From positions 19,784 to 83,783 of the IMG/VR virus record IMGVR_UViG_3300024331_000061: a stretch of 64,000 bases of DNA. One strand, 5' to 3'. Under the pieces are notes generated by a model. That model made no database searches. It was not told the DNA's origin and worked only from the letters and a program-made list of their open reading frames with translations. How positions within the stretch are numbered: the stretch's first letter is position 1; every line of letters starts with the position of its first letter. This stretch comes from a virus (lineage: Duplodnaviria > Caudoviricetes). The translations under genes and the position numbers were made by a program. Shown here piece by piece: positions 29,503-35,289 of this stretch.

Positions 29503-29695
29503 CTGGATCGACTCCCATCGCTACCAGCATGCGCCTGTGCAGGTGCCAGGCCAAGCGCACCCGCTCCGTGTGCTGCCTGTCCGCGTAGACCCGCAGCCGG
29601 TGCACCCGGTACATCAGGATCACCGTCATGACCAGGCTGGCTGCGATGCCCGCCGTGACGAGCTGCTGGAAGTGCTGGTGCCAGTAAACACTCAT
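29192..29695 (-). CDS. Small membrane protein (C-terminal extension overlaps MuF in another frame)
   Basis: ATG overlaps the portal stop; N-terminal TM helix. Only the first ~64 aa lie outside the MuF gene. Confidence 0.45.
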   Translation of the reverse strand: MSVYWHQHFQQLVTAGIAASLVMTVILMYRVHRLRVYADRQHTERVRLAWHLHRRMLVAMGVDPDDYARSAAAAPAILAGYGDRYGHYRGPGHGAGLGGDTHGGPDEPTSVLPYVPGATRLDAGRPGYGDELSTGEDGGRWFRVPDDRTAELPAAGSVRPRSWPPRY

Positions 29696-31287
29696 CAGCC
29701 AGGTTTACCAGCTCGGGCGGCTGGTGTCGGCCCGGCCATCAAAGATCCCGCCCTGGGCGGCCTCGGCGGCCCGCTGACTGGCTGCGCGCCCGGAGGCGGC
29801 GGCGGGCGCAGCCCTGGTGCGCCACCCGGCCGCGCCCCCGCCTGCTGCACGATACCGTGAGCGGCCCCAGCCAGCCCCTGGAGCTGTCCTATGGACCCGG
29901 CGGTCTCCGGGGGCAGGCCCGGCGGCGGGTTCTGCGTCATGGCTTCCTGGCGCTGCGTGGCGGTGGCGATCAGCGCCGCGTGCACCTGGTCCACGTCGAG
30001 CTGGAGGATGCTGGCCATGCGCTCGGTGATCAGGTCGAACACCTGGAGCGGAACGTGCAGGACGGGGGCGGCTGCCATGGTCTGGAACATGGTGAGCAGC
30101 GCGGCCTGCTGCTCGTCCTGGAGCGGGCCGAACTTGGCGCTGGGGAACGCGGCCTCGGGGCCGAAGTTGAGTAGCACCAGCGGCCGGATGATGCCGTGGG
30201 AGTAGGCTTCCGCCTGCTCTTTCGCCACGCCCTGCCTGCTCTTGAGGTAGAACGATGACTGGTCCTGGCTCAGCGAAAAGCTGCCCTTGCCGCCCATTGC
30301 GGAGCCGGTCAGGCCCATGAACCCAGCCAGGACAGAGTGGGTCTGCCAGCCCTCCAGGAACGCCATGGCCTCAGCGAAGAACTTGCCGCCGTCCCCGCTG
30401 GACTCCAGCACGTCGAACAGCTTCTTGTCCTCGGACGGGTGCACCATGCCGACCACGCCGCTGGACTTCAGCGAGGCGATCGAGTCGGCCTTGTCGTTGG
30501 CCTCGGCCTGGTCGTTGCCGTAGACCACGGTCCTGGGCAGCGCCTGGACCTCCAGGAAGTGATACCAGAGGTAGAGCAGCTTCATCTTGGTCTGGTAGCA
30601 CCAGTAGGCCACCTCCATCTCGGACGCGCCGATCAGGGGCTCGCGGTGCTTGCCGTGGGTGTAGATGAAGCTCCGCACGTGCGGGATGTCCACGTAGCCG
30701 GGCGTCTTGGACTTGCTGCTCAGGGCCATCTGGCCGCCGAACAGCCAGACCTGCTGGCGGAACCCGTGCTCGGCCGCCGTGCGCGAGTTATACCGGGCCT
30801 GGCAGGTGGACACCGGCCGGAACGCGATCTTGTCGTAGATGATCTTGCCGTCGTCCGGGCGGACCTTCCAGACCTTCTCGAAGAAGGCCCGGCGGTAGAT
30901 CTGGCCGCTGGTGATCTGGCCGATCAGGTCCACGTTCTGCGTCTGCATGCCGCCGTTGTGGTCCGGGGTGAGCAGCACGCTGTTGACGAAATCGGCCTCG
31001 CCCTTGTCACCCTTGGCTGGGTTGATGCTGAAGTCGGCTTCGCGGATCGGCAGGGTAAGCACGCTCTCGACGGACTGGCAGATGCCGTCCCGCTGGAACA
31101 TCACCTTCATGTCCCGGCTGGTCCACTCGCCGTAATCGAACACGTCGCCGCCGCCGTAGTAGGCGAACAGCCGCTGCCCGATGTCGAACTGGGTGCCGAT
31201 CTCCTTGCCCAGCAGCTGGCTCTTGGTCGTCTTGATGTCAGGCAGCTTCAGGACCTGCGCCAGCTGACCATCCTGCTTCTGGGCCAT
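29695..31287 (-). CDS. Portal protein (Mu gp29 / DUF935-like)
   Basis: 530 aa between terminase and MuF; F-x-F-F-E-K-V-W, G-x-S...AYW and LV-x-LNFG motifs. Confidence 0.85.
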   Translation of the reverse strand: MAQKQDGQLAQVLKLPDIKTTKSQLLGKEIGTQFDIGQRLFAYYGGGDVFDYGEWTSRDMKVMFQRDGICQSVESVLTLPIREADFSINPAKGDKGEADFVNSVLLTPDHNGGMQTQNVDLIGQITSGQIYRRAFFEKVWKVRPDDGKIIYDKIAFRPVSTCQARYNSRTAAEHGFRQQVWLFGGQMALSSKSKTPGYVDIPHVRSFIYTHGKHREPLIGASEMEVAYWCYQTKMKLLYLWYHFLEVQALPRTVVYGNDQAEANDKADSIASLKSSGVVGMVHPSEDKKLFDVLESSGDGGKFFAEAMAFLEGWQTHSVLAGFMGLTGSAMGGKGSFSLSQDQSSFYLKSRQGVAKEQAEAYSHGIIRPLVLLNFGPEAAFPSAKFGPLQDEQQAALLTMFQTMAAAPVLHVPLQVFDLITERMASILQLDVDQVHAALIATATQRQEAMTQNPPPGLPPETAGSIGQLQGLAGAAHGIVQQAGARPGGAPGLRPPPPPGAQPVSGPPRPPRAGSLMAGPTPAARAGKPG

Positions 31288-31318: not shown

Positions 31319-31531
31319 TTACCGCCCGCCGCGCTGGCGGATGATATAAGCGATCAGCTGGTGAGCGCAGCCGATATCGCTGGCGAGCTTGCGCATGGTC
31401 CACTTCCGCCGGTCCTCGTTGCGCAGCTCCATGATGAGCCGGTCCCGCGAATCACGACGGCGGCCCGCCTCCTGTTCGAGACGAGCCGCCGCCTGATGGT
31501 GCTCACGGGCCTGCTGAGCCCGTATGTCCAC
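31319..31531 (-). CDS. Small HTH DNA-binding protein
   Basis: 70 aa; WTMRKLASDIGCAHQLIAYI helix-turn-helix pattern; directly downstream of Ro60. Confidence 0.55.
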   Translation of the reverse strand: MDIRAQQAREHHQAAARLEQEAGRRRDSRDRLIMELRNEDRRKWTMRKLASDIGCAHQLIAYIIRQRGGR

Positions 31532-31546
31532 TGCTATCCGGCCTCC

Positions 31547-33223
31547 TTACAATGCGCCGCTGGCGAAGTCCGCCAGCAGCCTCGGCACGGCCTGGTCGAA
31601 CCCGGATACGTCCAGCGTGCGCCAGTCGGCCGGGTCCGCGATGGTGAAGTTGGTGGGCGTGTAGGCCACGACAGCCAGCCGGGCGTCGATGCCCATCTTC
31701 TGCCGGTAGTCCTCCAGGGCCTGGTGCGGGTGGATGTCCCCGTACCAGGTCTCGTTGTCGGTGTGGATCTCGAACACGTCCACCGGGATGCGGTGCTTGG
31801 CCGCCTCCAGCATCGGGACGGCGCAGTTCGTGCCGCCCATCTGCATCCCGAGCGCGACCTGCATCACGTCATCCAGGCGCATGCGCGGGCTGATGGGGTA
31901 CTCGCTGATGCCCGAGTTCATCCCGTTGATCCGGGTCCACCGGCTCGGGTAGCTGCCGTGGGTGAACGCGGTGATCATGTGCTGCGGCTCGGTGGCCGCC
32001 GTCACCAGCGCGGCTGCACTGGCCAGCTCGCGGCAGCTGATGGGCAGGCCGCCAGCCGGGTGGCCCATCGAGCCGCTGATGTCCACGGCCACGTTGCGCC
32101 GCTTCCCGGTCACCGGCACCGCGCCGTAGCTCAGGTAGAACGACTCGTCCAGCGCATCGCAGACCTGCTGGCTGACCGGCCAGTGATCCGTGCTGCGGGC
32201 ACCGTGCCCGCTGGCGTAGGTGCGCAGCGCGACCAGCTGGTTGACCGGGTGGATGCGGGCCTTCGCCAGCCCCTCGGCGTCGGTCAGCCGGGCGGTCACC
32301 AGGCGCGTGGTCTCGCTCATGGGGGTGAGCAGGCCGAGGCGGCTGATCTGGCCCAGGCGCTTGACCAGCGTGCCCAGCGGGATGCCGGTGTGGATCAGCG
32401 CGTCCCAGACCTCGGGGCTGGCCAGGGCCTCGGACGGCAGCATCTCGTGCGTCAGCTTGGACGTGCCGGGCGTGCCGTTGTAGTCCCCGATCAGCCGGGC
32501 GATCTGGTGGTTCGTGGTGCCGGGGTGCCAGACCTGCTGGTAGGCGTGCAGCAGCTGGGGCATGTCGCCCTTCAGCCACATCGACTCGCGGCGGCCCTTC
32601 AGGATGTAGTTGAACAGCATCACGTGGCTGCGCGGGATGGGCTGGCGGCCGAAGTGGCTCAGCCGCAGCAGGTCGCGCTGGCTCCAGTCATCGCGGCTCT
32701 TGTACTTCATGACCTGGTAGGCGACCTCATCGGCGTCCTTGTCGGTGTACCACTTGCCGACCGCCTTGGTCAGCGCGCGGCCCCAGCCACGGAACTGCTC
32801 GATGTAGCCCGCGAACGTGAGCAGGTGCGAGCCGGTGCGGCAGACCAGCGGCAGCCGGTCGAGCGCGGCCTGGCGGTAGTGCGTGTCGCCCAGGCTGGCT
32901 GCGGCGGCGAGGGAGAAGATCGCCGGGTTGACGCGCGGTGCGCGCCCGCCGATGCTGATGTCCTCGATTTCCTCGATCAGCCGGTAGTCGTTCGCCTTGG
33001 CCATGCGGATCACCCGCGCAGCTGCGGCCTTGGTCATCTTGGGCTCGGTCGCGTTGAACGTGCCGCCCTCGGTGCCCATGGTCAGGAAGCGCCGCAGCGC
33101 GGTGACCTCGGAAGTCTGGAAGGTGTAGCCCCCGGCGCTGTTGGGCACCTGGCGCGGGTCAGCGCGCCGGGACTGCGGAGTAGGGGACCTGCGGGTGTAT
33201 ATGTCGGAAAGGGAGTCAGGCAT
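31547..33223 (-). CDS. rsr: Ro60 / TROVE-domain RNA-binding protein (Rsr-like)
   Basis: QVPNSAGG...LRRFLTMGTEGGT TROVE N-terminus; vWA MIDAS DISGSM, GGTNC and TDNETW motifs; 558 aa. Confidence 0.95.
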   Translation of the reverse strand: MPDSLSDIYTRRSPTPQSRRADPRQVPNSAGGYTFQTSEVTALRRFLTMGTEGGTFNATEPKMTKAAAARVIRMAKANDYRLIEEIEDISIGGRAPRVNPAIFSLAAAASLGDTHYRQAALDRLPLVCRTGSHLLTFAGYIEQFRGWGRALTKAVGKWYTDKDADEVAYQVMKYKSRDDWSQRDLLRLSHFGRQPIPRSHVMLFNYILKGRRESMWLKGDMPQLLHAYQQVWHPGTTNHQIARLIGDYNGTPGTSKLTHEMLPSEALASPEVWDALIHTGIPLGTLVKRLGQISRLGLLTPMSETTRLVTARLTDAEGLAKARIHPVNQLVALRTYASGHGARSTDHWPVSQQVCDALDESFYLSYGAVPVTGKRRNVAVDISGSMGHPAGGLPISCRELASAAALVTAATEPQHMITAFTHGSYPSRWTRINGMNSGISEYPISPRMRLDDVMQVALGMQMGGTNCAVPMLEAAKHRIPVDVFEIHTDNETWYGDIHPHQALEDYRQKMGIDARLAVVAYTPTNFTIADPADWRTLDVSGFDQAVPRLLADFASGAL

Positions 33224-33249: not shown

Positions 33250-33322
33250 GCCCCGCGAGCATAAGCATTCCGGCCGGGGATACTGTCCGACACGGTAACC
33301 GGCCGAATCCGGCTCGCGGGGC
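33250..33322 (-). ncRNA. Short Y RNA (73 nt; Ro-binding module only)
   Basis: Terminal stem GCCCCGCGAGC/GCUCGCGGGGC with GAGCCGGAUU...UUAUGCUC internal motif and GGUUACCG, shared with the two upstream elements. Confidence 0.8.
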
Positions 33323-33345
33323 ATTCAGTTCTTCTGGGTTGAGCA

Positions 33346-33394
33346 GCTGCCGTGTCCCCCGGTTTGGGGGGGTGAACCAAGGGACACATGCAGC
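33346..33394 (-). other. Long hairpin with C7 loop between Y RNAs
   Basis: GCUGC-AUGUGUCCC-UUGGUU-CACCCCCCCA-AACCGG-GGGACAC-G-GCAGC folds into an extended stem. Confidence 0.6.
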
Positions 33395-33402
33395 CACAAA
33401 AA

Positions 33403-33498
33403 GCGCGGCGAGCATAAATGAAAGCCCGGTAAGAAGTGCCCTTGCGGACACCTTCCCGTTTGGAAGGCGGTAACCGGACCTAATCCGGCTCGCCACGC
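33403..33498 (-). ncRNA. Y RNA (96 nt) with two distal hairpins
   Basis: Same Ro-binding ends (GCGUGGCGAGCCGGAUUAGG...AUUUAUGCUCGCCGCGC); distal hairpins CCUUCC/GGAAGG and UGUCC-GCAA-GGGCA. Confidence 0.8.
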
Positions 33499-33516
33499 GG
33501 ATGATCTTGAGTTATG

Positions 33517-33666
33517 GGCGATGAGCATAAATCTCAGCCTGGGGTTTTAGCGCTCTAGCCCTGAGCTACCGTCCCTGGCCCTTTCGGGTTAGCGGGACGG
33601 GCGGGGACTCCAACCCCGCATCCTCTCCGTTAGCAGCGGTAACCAGACCAATTCCGGCTCATCACC
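33517..33666 (-). ncRNA. yrlA: YrlA-type tRNA-mimicking Y RNA (150 nt)
   Basis: Ro-binding terminal stem, a T-arm (GCGGGG-UUGGAGU-CCCCGC), a closed acceptor-like stem (CCGUCCC/GGGACGG) and a D-arm (GGUAGCUCAGGGCUAGAGC) in permuted order; adjacent to Ro60. Confidence 0.88.
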
Positions 33667-33674
33667 TTGTCCAT

Positions 33675-33703
33675 AAGCTAGACGACTTTCGCCGGTCTGT
33701 CAA
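33675..33703 (-). promoter_or_regulatory. Sigma70/HrdB-type promoter of the Y RNA-Ro60 cassette
   Basis: TTGACA (33703-33698), 17 nt, TAGCTT (33680-33675). The predicted start at ~33668-33666 coincides with the YrlA 5' end. Confidence 0.8.
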
Positions 33704-33708
33704 ATCCA

Positions 33709-35289
33709 TTACCGCCATGCCTTCACGTTGGGCCGCTCGCGGTTCTCCTGAGCCTGGCTGAGCGTGTCATCCTGCGGCGCGAACCCGTCTTCGGTCCAGT
33801 CGCCCCCGGCCCTGGAGTAGGCACCGCCGTGCGCGCTGGCCAGGCGGCGGCGCATGCTGCTCACCCTGCCGCCGGGCTCTTCCTCGATGTCCGGGCCGTA
33901 CTCGGCCAGGTCCTGCATGCCAGCCCACTCCCGCTTGGTGGCGGGCACCAGCGGGCCGAAGGTAGCGTTCAGCCAGAAGTGGCAGCCCCACACCAGCGAG
34001 TCCAGCCTGTCTGGTGAGCGCTCCCCCTGGGCTCCGGTGAAGCTGCACATCTGGTCCTCAAGGTCTACGAAACGCTCGGTGTCGGTATGCCAGATCCTGT
34101 CTCCGCTGTCCGGGTCGGTGATCTGGTATGTGACGGACTTGTTGCAGTGCCGGACTATGCCGCGCTCATACAGGGCCGATACCGGCTCAGCACGGGTCCG
34201 CTTAGCCTGGCTGGCGTGTACCAGCTCGTAGGGGACACGGCCGGTCTCCTTCATGACCTGCTCGAATGTGGACTTCAGCCAGCCCCCGCCGTGGTTCTTC
34301 TCGATCACCAGGGTGGCGTGCAGCTCCTGGGCCTTCTTGATCACCCGCTTGGCGAACATCACCGGGGACTCCTGGCCGCCCCAGCTCTCTATGACGTAGA
34401 CGTGCGGGTCATCGACCTGCCCCCTGGCGACCACGGTGTACGCCTGCTCGTCGCTGTCCTCAGCCCCGTCACTGGGGTCCACGCCGATGTAGACCCTGGT
34501 CAGGAACGTCGGGCCGCCTTCCTCGCCCACGCCGGGGCACTGGATGGAATCGACCAGCTCGCGGGTCCACAGGGCGTTCGCCACGTCGTCCAGCAGCTCG
34601 CCCTCCAGCTCCTGGCGTTCGAGCCGGGTGCCCTTGGCCGCGCCGACGACAGCCCGGTAGAACGCCTCGGACAGGTTGGCGATGTTGTCGATGGTGCGCA
34701 GCCGCCGGGTGATCACGCCGCCGTGCTCGGGCTCGTTGCGGATCAGTGACCGGACCAGCTTGCGCGCCGGTCGGCTGACCTTGGGCGTGCCGGTGGCGAT
34801 GATCTTGGACACGCCCATCCGCACCGCGTACCGCAGCGATTCGCCCCAGGCCACTTCCCACTTCTGCCAGAGCCCGATTTCGTCGCACCAGGCCGCCTTC
34901 AGGTTGCGGCCCTGGATGCGCAGGCCGCCCTCGTCGGCGCTGTCCACGTAGATCACCACGCCGTTGTGCATGACCACCTGGCCGTAGGTGCGCCAGGCGC
35001 TGCGGACCAGCTTGGAGCGGTGGTCCTTGACCTCGGCCATGGAGGTCCCCAGCGCCCTCAGGATGCCGCTCTCGCCCTCCACGCACTTGGTCCAGGCGTC
35101 GGCGTAGGTCGGCGCGATGATGCCGTACTCGCCCTCTCCGTCGGTATCCATGAGCACGATGTCCGCCAGCCCCTGGGCACCGGCCCTGGTCTTGCCGCTG
35201 CCCCGGCCGCCCTGGAGGTAGAACACCCGCCACGGGTCCTCGATAGGCGGCAGCAGCTGCTCGGGCCTGCTGGTCGCGCGCCACCGCAC
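33709..35289 (-). CDS. Terminase large subunit (true start probably ~35364, see findings)
   Basis: Walker A GGRGSGKT, Walker B AWCDEI, nuclease IGVDP...D and SPDRLDSLVW. Confidence 0.93.
   Translation of the reverse strand: MRWRATSRPEQLLPPIEDPWRVFYLQGGRGSGKTRAGAQGLADIVLMDTDGEGEYGIIAPTYADAWTKCVEGESGILRALGTSMAEVKDHRSKLVRSAWRTYGQVVMHNGVVIYVDSADEGGLRIQGRNLKAAWCDEIGLWQKWEVAWGESLRYAVRMGVSKIIATGTPKVSRPARKLVRSLIRNEPEHGGVITRRLRTIDNIANLSEAFYRAVVGAAKGTRLERQELEGELLDDVANALWTRELVDSIQCPGVGEEGGPTFLTRVYIGVDPSDGAEDSDEQAYTVVARGQVDDPHVYVIESWGGQESPVMFAKRVIKKAQELHATLVIEKNHGGGWLKSTFEQVMKETGRVPYELVHASQAKRTRAEPVSALYERGIVRHCNKSVTYQITDPDSGDRIWHTDTERFVDLEDQMCSFTGAQGERSPDRLDSLVWGCHFWLNATFGPLVPATKREWAGMQDLAEYGPDIEEEPGGRVSSMRRRLASAHGGAYSRAGGDWTEDGFAPQDDTLSQAQENRERPNVKAWR

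What the first reader, a model, noticed from the sequence alone, without database searches (positions are those of the whole stretch)
33250..33666. Three tandem Y RNAs sharing one Ro-binding module but with different distal modules
Seen: all three share 5'-GAGCCGGA(A)UU-x-G...GGUUACCG and 3'-UUAUGCUC within a distinct terminal stem (covarying: GGUGAU/AUCGCC, GCGUGGC/GCCGCGC, GCCCCGC/GCGGGGC). The distal parts differ: a permuted tRNA mimic (150 nt), two hairpins (96 nt), and a minimal loop (73 nt). The tRNA-like T-loop is UUGGAGU rather than UUCGA. Inference: an interchangeable adaptor set that lets one Ro60 ring recruit or block different partners. I know of YrlA/YrlB pairs in bacteria but not of a three-member phage array.
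Basis: partly seen in the sequence, partly recalled or inferred. Interest (0 to 1): 0.82.

Follow-up and report, generated by a model that had tools for sequence, protein, structure and literature searches.

The report
Phage Ro60 gene with three Y RNAs
An uncultured soil phage carries, just ahead of its gene for the ring-shaped RNA-binding protein Ro60, three small RNA genes that share one Ro60 docking stem but have different far ends. The three RNAs are real, but this layout is the usual one in related phages and in actinobacteria, so it is a new example of a known system.

Summary
Three elements lie on the minus strand between the terminase gene and a full Ro60 gene (TROVE + vWA domains): A 33516-33667, B 33403-33498, C 33250-33322. 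Each has a different, fully paired closing stem and the same core: GAGCCGGA, a second covarying stem, GGUUACCG, and UUAUGCUC on the 3' side.

A covariance model built only from other phage loci finds exactly these three places in 64 kb (83.5, 43.7 and 42.5 bits). A is a YrlA-type permuted tRNA mimic. Its odd T-loop (G at position 56) is matched by a C at D-loop position 19.

The novelty claim does not hold:
- Two models found 189 and 198 such elements upstream of Ro60 in about 80 related phage contigs, every one on the Ro60 strand.
- In 55 of those loci the arrays hold 1-6 elements, most often 3-5.
- 80 actinobacterial Ro60 loci gave 196 more.
- A Mycobacterium abscessus prophage has six, none annotated as Y RNAs; one overlaps an annotated tRNA-Thr.

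This scan has also noted Ro60 RNA arrays on other DNA. Ro60 binding, processing and partner recruitment are inferred, not shown.

Verdict: a new member of a known kind, of moderate-to-low interest.

The parts
33698..33703 (-). -35-like hexamer TTGACA, 5 nt after the terminase stop codon
   Evidence: Read. A 17-nt spacer leads to the -10-like hexamer. The same TTGACA is placed alike in the nearest relative. The promoter tool's stricter rule reports no site here.
33675..33680 (-). -10-like hexamer TAGCTT (TANNNT type), about 7 nt before element A
   Evidence: In other loci the first elements are preceded at the same distance by TACAGT-type hexamers. That it acts as a promoter is inferred.
33516..33667 (-). 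Element A: a YrlA-class Y RNA, made of the Ro60 docking stem plus a permuted tRNA mimic
   Evidence: R2 scores 83.5 bits, E about 1e-18, end to end. Rfam YrlA gives only 22.1 bits, E 0.077.
33552..33619 (-). tRNA-like module of A: T arm 33601-33619, acceptor stem 33594-33600/33569-33575 closed by an 18-nt loop, D arm 33552-33566
   Evidence: T-loop G56 is paired with D-loop C19 (AGGGCUA). Across about 100 modules in relatives, positions 19 and 56 stay complementary.
33403..33498 (-). Element B: a Y RNA-like element with the same docking module and two distal hairpins, the second with a GCAA tetraloop
   Evidence: R1 36.4 bits and R2 43.7 bits. Fold z -4.0. A like element with a GCAA-loop hairpin is in the nearest relative.
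33340..33397 (-). Extra long hairpin with a C-rich loop, between B and C and without the docking motif; role unknown
   Evidence: -35.8 kcal/mol, z -4.1. Only a chance-level match to 6C RNA. I saw no counterpart in the nearest relative's upstream region.
33250..33322 (-). Element C: a minimal Y RNA-like element, 26 nt before the Ro60 start codon
   Evidence: R1 65.3 bits, E 2e-11. Fold z -4.7. Its 25-nt GGUUACC-plus-loop stretch is identical in the nearest relative, while both stems changed with compensation.
31547..33223 (-). Ro60 (Rsr-like) protein, 558 aa
   Evidence: Pfam vWA_Ro60 4e-51 and TROVE 1e-32. PDB 1YVP 1e-92, 2NVO 2e-89. PHROG 850.
31319..31531 (-). Small basic 70-aa protein that often follows Ro60 in relatives; function unknown
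   Evidence: tblastn finds it just after Ro60 in about 70 of about 160 phage and actinobacterial loci. No Pfam, PHROG or NCBIfam family.

Best explanation
This is a Ro60/Y-RNA cassette of an uncultured soil phage. The order is: a promoter-like site directly after the terminase gene, then three small RNA genes, an extra hairpin between the second and third, the Ro60 gene and a small conserved gene.

Shown by sequence and comparison: each RNA closes on itself through a private terminal stem. That stem runs into a constant module (GAGC/GCUC pairs, unpaired CCGGA(A)UU, a second covarying stem, then GGUUACC).

Inferred: this constant module is the docking site for the phage's Ro60 ring, as in bacterial YrlA/YrlB and animal Y RNAs. 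The distal ends differ, so that Ro60 particles of different make-up form:
- A carries a tRNA mimic with a closed acceptor stem.
- B carries two hairpins.
- C carries only a short conserved loop.

By analogy with Deinococcus, Salmonella and Thermus phage phiLo, at least one of them probably tethers Ro60 to a host exoribonuclease such as PNPase, or gates access to the Ro60 cavity. Also inferred: the RNAs are cut from one precursor transcript. A may be cleaved by RNase P at the 7-bp acceptor stem, as in Mycobacterium smegmatis.
For: 1. A true Ro60 gene lies 26 nt downstream on the same strand.
2. Model R2, seeded without the window, finds exactly these three elements in 64 kb (83.5, 43.7 and 42.5 bits).
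3. The stems covary. In the minimal-class alignment, 13 of 18 pairs show compensatory changes and 93% of cells pair, against 35-42% when the partner is slid. Helix 2 was not used to pick the sequences and is 91% paired. The YrlA-class alignment has 22 of 31 pairs with compensatory change.
4. Placement is strict. R1 gave 189 hits and R2 198 in related phage loci, all on the Ro60 strand. All R1 hits and nearly all R2 hits lie upstream of Ro60.
5. The family is tied to an RNA shown to bind Rsr. The published M. smegmatis YrlA 5' probe target matches the class consensus with 2-4 mismatches in many loci (PMC4201824).
6. The tRNA-like fold is supported by tertiary covariation. G56 here goes with C19. 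Other variants (G55 G56/A18 C19; G55 A56/A18 U19) also keep positions 19 and 56 complementary. 84 modules have the usual C56/G19.
7. The loop of C is under selection: it is 25/25 nt identical in a relative whose Ro60 is 62% identical, while both stems changed.
8. A promoter-like site sits where first elements of other arrays have TACAGT-type -10 boxes. A spacer motif (AACU[GC]A) is enriched about 18-fold before elements, which fits processing from one transcript.
9. A phage Ro60 with two Y-like RNAs binds host PNPase in vitro (PMC12135203).
Against: - There is no expression, end-mapping, binding or partner data for this locus.
- Rfam's curated YrlA model does not reach its threshold (22.1 against 69 bits). 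Relatives also fall short (48.5 bits).
- The docking motif is GCCGGA rather than the published GNCGAA.
- Element A alone folds only modestly better than shuffles (z -1.8).
- Helix 1 pairing in my seed alignment is inflated, because I chose the sequences by a closing-stem criterion.
- Many contigs in the survey are near-duplicates, so the counts are not independent events.
- NCBIfam's Rsr equivalog cut-off is not reached (423 against 900 bits).
Confidence: 0.82

Rival explanations
1. Element C, and perhaps B, works mainly in cis as a structured leader of the Ro60 mRNA. Ro60 would bind its own leader and set its own translation or mRNA stability, rather than C acting as a free adaptor RNA. This need not exclude the main reading.
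For: C ends 26 nt before the Ro60 start codon. In 55 phage loci the last element lies a median 29 nt before the start (39 of 55 within 10-60 nt) and is short (median 81 nt; 95 nt or less in 40 of 55). Co-transcription of Y RNAs with rsr is known (PMC4201824).
Against: The same module also occurs further upstream in arrays, far from any start codon. In the nearest relative the element with the identical loop is second in the array, not last. No pairing between C and the ribosome-binding site was evident on reading the sequence.
Confidence: 0.25
2. The three elements are structured repeats with no link to Ro60 binding. They could be terminators or attenuators, REP-like repeats, or terminase recognition sites, since they lie next to the terminase gene.
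For: They lie directly after the terminase gene. B and C are followed by short U runs (UUUUU, UUUCUU).
Against: - U runs after elements are no more frequent than before them across 139 distinct elements (21 against 19).
- In other phages the array follows Ro60 wherever that gene lies: next to an integrase in Cashline and far from the packaging genes in Catera. Only the nearest relative has the terminase-portal setting.
- The conserved unpaired motifs and the strict strand bias point to an RNA with a specific ligand.
Confidence: 0.03
3. Element A is an ordinary phage tRNA gene, as ARAGORN calls it (tRNA-Ser, anticodon gct).
For: ARAGORN reports tRNA-Ser at 33594-33672. A similar element in a GenBank prophage is annotated tRNA-Thr.
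Against: The arms are in the order T arm, acceptor, D arm, with the acceptor closed by a loop and no anticodon arm. Rfam's tRNA model does not match it at gathering score, although it finds true tRNAs in related loci. The whole 152 nt fits the YrlA-class model end to end.
Confidence: 0.01

Closest known systems
YrlA of Mycobacterium smegmatis, Salmonella Typhimurium and mycobacteriophages (Rfam RF02553; Chen et al. 2014, PMC4201824)
   Same: Element A lies upstream of Ro60 on the same strand. It has a closing stem with a GNCGAA-like motif on the 5' strand and a tRNA-like domain in the order T arm, closed acceptor stem, D arm. Like the M. smegmatis RNA, which RNase P cleaves, it has a 7-bp acceptor stem. 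The segment after GGUUACC resembles the published M. smegmatis probe target, with one compensatory pair change.
   Different: It scores only 22 bits on the Rfam model. The motif is GCCGGA, and the 3' strand is UUAUGCUC instead of CACACGCCC. The T stem has 6 bp. The elbow pair is reversed (G56/C19). The acceptor loop holds an extra small GAAA hairpin.
YrlB (M. smegmatis, S. Typhimurium) and Yrn2 (D. radiodurans): second, simpler Y RNAs (PMC4201824)
   Same: Elements B and C are extra, simpler RNAs with the same docking motif. They are encoded between YrlA and Ro60 and are probably cut from one precursor.
   Different: There are two of them plus an extra hairpin. Neither B nor C has the T arm reported for M. 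smegmatis YrlB. I could not compare the sequences directly.
Thermus phage phiLo Ro60 with Yrl1 and Yrl2 (PMC12135203)
   Same: A phage-encoded Ro60 has Y-like RNAs just upstream. Those RNAs have one or two hairpins and a CGAA-type motif. A complex with host PNPase was shown in vitro.
   Different: It is a different phage lineage and host. It has two RNAs, and the passages I read describe no tRNA mimic.
Animal Y RNAs (Y1, Y3, Y4, Y5)
   Same: Several small RNAs share one Ro60-binding stem formed by their 5' and 3' ends, with different loops thought to recruit different partners.
   Different: The animal genes are separate and transcribed by RNA polymerase III. Both strands of the binding helix are conserved. 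They have no tRNA-like module.

Membership tests
Ro60 / Rsr protein | TROVE (HEAT-repeat ring) domain followed by a vWA domain | tested here: met
   Pfam TROVE 1.1e-32 and vWA_Ro60 4.3e-51, both above their cut-offs. Full-length matches to solved Ro60/Rsr chains at E 1e-92 to 8e-88.
Ro60 / Rsr protein | NCBIfam equivalog NF041674 cut-off (900 bits) | tested here: not met
   423 bits, E 1e-126. The protein is a clear homologue, but outside the narrow equivalog definition.
YrlA (Rfam RF02553) | Reaches the Rfam gathering score (69 bits) | tested here: not met
   Element A scores 22.1 bits, E 0.077, and only the tRNA-like core aligns. A relative's YrlA-class element scores 48.5 bits, also below threshold.
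YrlA (Rfam RF02553) | tRNA-like domain in the order T arm, closed acceptor stem, D arm | tested here: met
   The helices covary in relatives. Positions 19 and 56 of the elbow covary.
YrlA (Rfam RF02553) | Encoded within 4 kb of Ro60 on the same strand (criterion of Chen et al. 2014) | tested here: met
   A ends 293 nt upstream of the Ro60 start codon, on the same strand.
YrlA (Rfam RF02553) | GNCGAAN0-1G motif near the 5' end | tested here: inconclusive
   The elements have GCCGGAAUUGG, GCCGGAUUAGG and GCCGGAUUCGG, so position 5 is G rather than A. Relatives have GCCGGA (most) or GCCGAA at the same place.
Y RNA (functional definition) | Bound by Ro60 in vivo or in vitro | not testable with these tools
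   No RNA run was listed for this DNA. This needs immunoprecipitation or a gel-shift assay.
Y RNA (structural definition) | 5' and 3' ends pair into a long stem that holds the conserved binding motif, with a variable distal loop | tested here: met
   Folds. Two stems with compensatory changes in 13 of 18 pairs. All three elements fit the models end to end.

The most novel reading that the evidence does not exclude
Phage and actinobacterial Ro60 loci encode ordered, shuffled arrays of up to about six Y RNAs. These could act as a programmable adaptor set that points host RNA-decay or tRNA-handling enzymes at different targets during infection. The short last element would double as an autoregulatory leader of the Ro60 mRNA, and a conserved, uncharacterised 70-aa protein would be a third component of the particle or its regulator.
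Probability: 0.15. Interest if true: 0.6.

Novelty: new member of a known kind. Interest (0 to 1): 0.3.

Why it matters
Ro60 with Y RNAs is a conserved RNA-surveillance particle, and its partners in bacteria and phages are mostly unknown. This locus adds a clean, compact example inside a phage structural module. More usefully, the survey made here shows that multi-member arrays (mostly 3-5 elements) are the normal layout in this Ro60 lineage. They are not annotated as Y RNAs in the GenBank records I checked, and tRNA finders sometimes call them tRNAs. The papers I could read describe only one or two RNAs per locus. The reversed but still complementary 19:56 pair gives comparative support that the tRNA elbow of these mimics forms. 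None of this changes the kind of system it is.

Tried and rejected
- Rfam at gathering scores found nothing in the window. At relaxed E-values only a sub-threshold YrlA match appeared, plus chance-level matches to 6C, F6 and mir-139.
- Megablast of the locus against cultured phages gave no match.
- A search for related loci with the single Ro60 protein found none. An alignment of four Ro60 proteins was needed.
- Most places that matched the exact 5' motif in viral contigs (8 of 12) had no Ro60 in the fetched stretch. I set them aside as unverified.
- Model R1 (minimal class) does not detect element A, even with filters off (10.9 bits), because the insert is too long. I built a second model for that reason.
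- I rejected the idea that each element ends in an intrinsic terminator as a general rule. T runs are equally common before and after elements, and the terminator scan found none.
- The promoter scan also found none, because TAGCTT matches TATAAT in only 3 of 6 positions. The promoter call rests on my own reading and on conservation of position.
- Sequencing runs: no RNA holder was listed, so I laid no reads.
- The two review papers on bacterial Ro60 (PMC10870794, PMC6542706) are not held. The supplementary tables of Chen et al. 2014 are not held either. I therefore cannot say whether larger arrays were already tabulated there.
- The terminase has no close cultured relative (34% identity or less). 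The host assignment to Actinomycetota rests on the Ro60 and Y RNA type only.

Full report
**What is there**

The window is part of an 83.8-kb IMG/VR virus record. On the minus strand the gene order is:
- large terminase, 33709-35289;
- a 485-nt non-coding stretch;
- a 558-aa protein, 31547-33223;
- a 70-aa protein, 31319-31531;
- a Mu-type portal, 29695-31287.

The 558-aa protein is a full Ro60. Pfam gives vWA_Ro60 at 4e-51 and TROVE at 1e-32. Solved structures of Xenopus Ro60 and Deinococcus Rsr match along the whole length at E 1e-92 and 2e-89.

The finding lies in the non-coding stretch, on the Ro60 strand.

**Checking the observation**

- Every GGTTACCG and every TTATGCTC in the 64-kb window lies in them.
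- Each has its own fully paired terminal stem, followed by GAGC paired with GCUC.
- B and C fold much better than shuffled sequence (z -4.0 and -4.7). A is weaker (z -1.8).
- ARAGORN calls a tRNA-Ser at 33594-33672. This is a mis-reading of the T arm of element A.

**Comparison with other loci**

An exact-pattern scan of viral contigs, followed by a search with an alignment of four Ro60 proteins, gave 80 phage loci with Ro60 on the plus strand.

The nearest relative is L011, fetched again as L015. Its amino-acid identity to the window is Ro60 62%, terminase 66% and portal 90%, and it has the same terminase-to-portal setting. It carries four elements:
- a YrlA type with the same UUGGAxU T-loop;
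- a minimal one;
- a two-hairpin one with a GCAA tetraloop;
- a fourth of 125 nt.

Its minimal element shares 25 of 25 nt with element C from GGUUACC through the loop, while both stems differ with compensation. The order of the minimal and two-hairpin types is swapped relative to the window.

**Two covariance models**

R1 was built from 27 minimal-class elements.
- 13 of 18 pairs show compensatory changes.
- 93% of cells pair, against 35-42% when partners are slid.
- I chose the sequences partly by a closing-stem rule, so helix 1 is biased. Helix 2 was not used in the choice and is still 91% paired.
- R1 found 189 elements at E 0.01 or better in the 80 phage loci, all on the Ro60 strand and all upstream of Ro60.

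R2 was built from 26 YrlA-class elements of other loci, leaving out the window and its nearest relative.
- It matches element A end to end at 83.5 bits.
- It also picks up B and C through the shared stems (43.7 and 42.5 bits).
- It finds nothing else in the window.
- Across 70 sources it gives 198 hits, again all on the Ro60 strand.

**How common arrays are**

Merging the two sets of hits over 55 phage loci gives these array sizes: 1 in 5 loci, 2 in 5, 3 in 14, 4 in 15, 5 in 12 and 6 in 4. These are lower bounds, and some contigs are near-duplicates.
- The first element is usually the YrlA type.
- The last is short (median 81 nt) and ends a median 29 nt before the Ro60 start codon.
- The window (152, 96 and 73 nt; gap 26 nt) fits this layout exactly.

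The arrays also occur in sequenced phages and in bacteria:
- Mycobacterium phage Catera has two elements and Gordonia phage Cashline has two.
- The Mycobacterium abscessus prophage prophiGD43A-5 has six. None is annotated as a Y RNA, and one overlaps an annotated tRNA-Thr.
- Eighty Ro60 loci from Actinomycetota genomes gave 196 hits, with up to five per locus.

A three-member array is therefore ordinary for this lineage.

**Link to published Y RNAs**

Chen et al. 2014 (PMC4201824) found YrlA next to Ro60 in 254 bacteria and 22 phages. They showed that M. smegmatis Rsr binds YrlA and a second RNA, YrlB. Both are cut from one precursor, and RNase P cleaves YrlA at its 7-bp acceptor stem.

Their YrlA 5' probe target occurs with 2-4 mismatches in the YrlA-class elements of many loci used here. 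This ties R2's family to an RNA shown to bind Rsr.

Rfam's YrlA model is narrow. It gives 48.5 bits for a relative and 22.1 bits for element A, against a threshold of 69.

Thermus phage phiLo has two Y-like RNAs upstream of its Ro60. These form complexes with host PNPase in vitro (PMC12135203).

**The odd T-loop**

Element A has a 6-bp T stem and the loop UUGGAGU, with G where tRNAs have C56. Its D-loop is AGGGCUA, with C where tRNAs have G19. Across about 100 tRNA-like modules in the fetched loci:
- 84 have U55 C56 with G18 G19;
- the window and its nearest relative have U55 G56 with G18 C19;
- two other phage loci have G55 G56 with A18 C19;
- one actinobacterial locus has G55 A56 with A18 U19.

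The 19:56 pair stays Watson-Crick in every variant.

**Transcription and processing (inferred)**

- TTGACA, 17 nt, then TAGCTT lies 5 nt after the terminase stop codon, and its -10 box ends about 7 nt before element A.
- First elements of other arrays are preceded at the same distance by TACAGT-type boxes.
- Spacers before later elements are enriched about 18-fold for AACU[GC]A. The related ACAACU is the commonest hexamer there, in 23 of 139 spacers.
- U runs after elements are not a general feature.

This fits one transcript that is processed into separate RNAs. No RNA data were available to test it.

**Mechanism and rivals**

The best reading is that the constant module docks on the phage Ro60 and the three distal modules give particles with different partners or different gating. 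The identity of the elements is well supported. The function is an analogy.

- A non-exclusive rival is that the last, minimal element acts in cis as an autoregulatory leader of the Ro60 mRNA. Its conserved position next to the start codon favours this. Against it, the element with the identical loop is second, not last, in the nearest relative.
- Readings as terminators, generic repeats, packaging sites or a true tRNA are rejected on strand bias, covariation, linkage to Ro60 rather than to terminase, and arm order.

**Verdict**

The RNAs are best filed as Y RNA-like partners of a phage Ro60, with A in the YrlA class. The claim that the array is unusual is not supported. This scan has noted Ro60 RNA arrays on other DNA many times. 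I rate it a new member of a known kind, with interest of about 0.3.

Noticed in passing
window 33340-33397 (-): A 58-nt, near-perfect hairpin (-35.8 kcal/mol, z -4.1) with a C-rich loop UUCACCCCCCCAAA lies between elements B and C. It lacks the Ro60 docking motif, and I saw no counterpart in the nearest relative. [quoted passage not shown]
   Followed up: partly
window 31319-31531 (-): A basic 70-aa protein lies directly after Ro60. tblastn finds it in the same position in about 70 of about 160 phage and actinobacterial Ro60 loci. It has no Pfam, PHROG or NCBIfam family. It may be a third component or a regulator of the cassette.
   Followed up: partly
L097 1747-1825 (MW584167.1, prophiGD43A-5); window 33594-33672: YrlA-class elements are mis-called as tRNAs. 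The GenBank tRNA-Thr(tgt) lies inside a 127-bit YrlA-class hit, and ARAGORN calls a tRNA-Ser inside element A.
   Followed up: yes
L025, L056, L075, L083 (upstream of their arrays): In several phages the Y RNA array directly follows a cluster of 8-20 true tRNA genes on the same strand. This window has no true tRNA.
   Followed up: no
L015 (= L011) against the window: The two phages are mosaic: portal 90%, terminase 66% and Ro60 62% amino-acid identity. Array content differs (4 elements against 3 plus a hairpin), and the order of the minimal and two-hairpin types is swapped.
   Followed up: partly
L060-L062, L068, L070-L072, L076-L082, L085: A low-GC group of viral contigs (elements about 31% GC) with Ro60 about 42% identical shows at most one short element upstream of Ro60, not an array.
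   Followed up: no
spacers before elements, e.g. window 33323-33339 and 33499-33515 (-): The motif AACU[GC]A recurs in the spacers just upstream of elements across loci, enriched about 18-fold over background; the related ACAACU is the commonest hexamer there. It is a candidate processing signal.
   Followed up: partly
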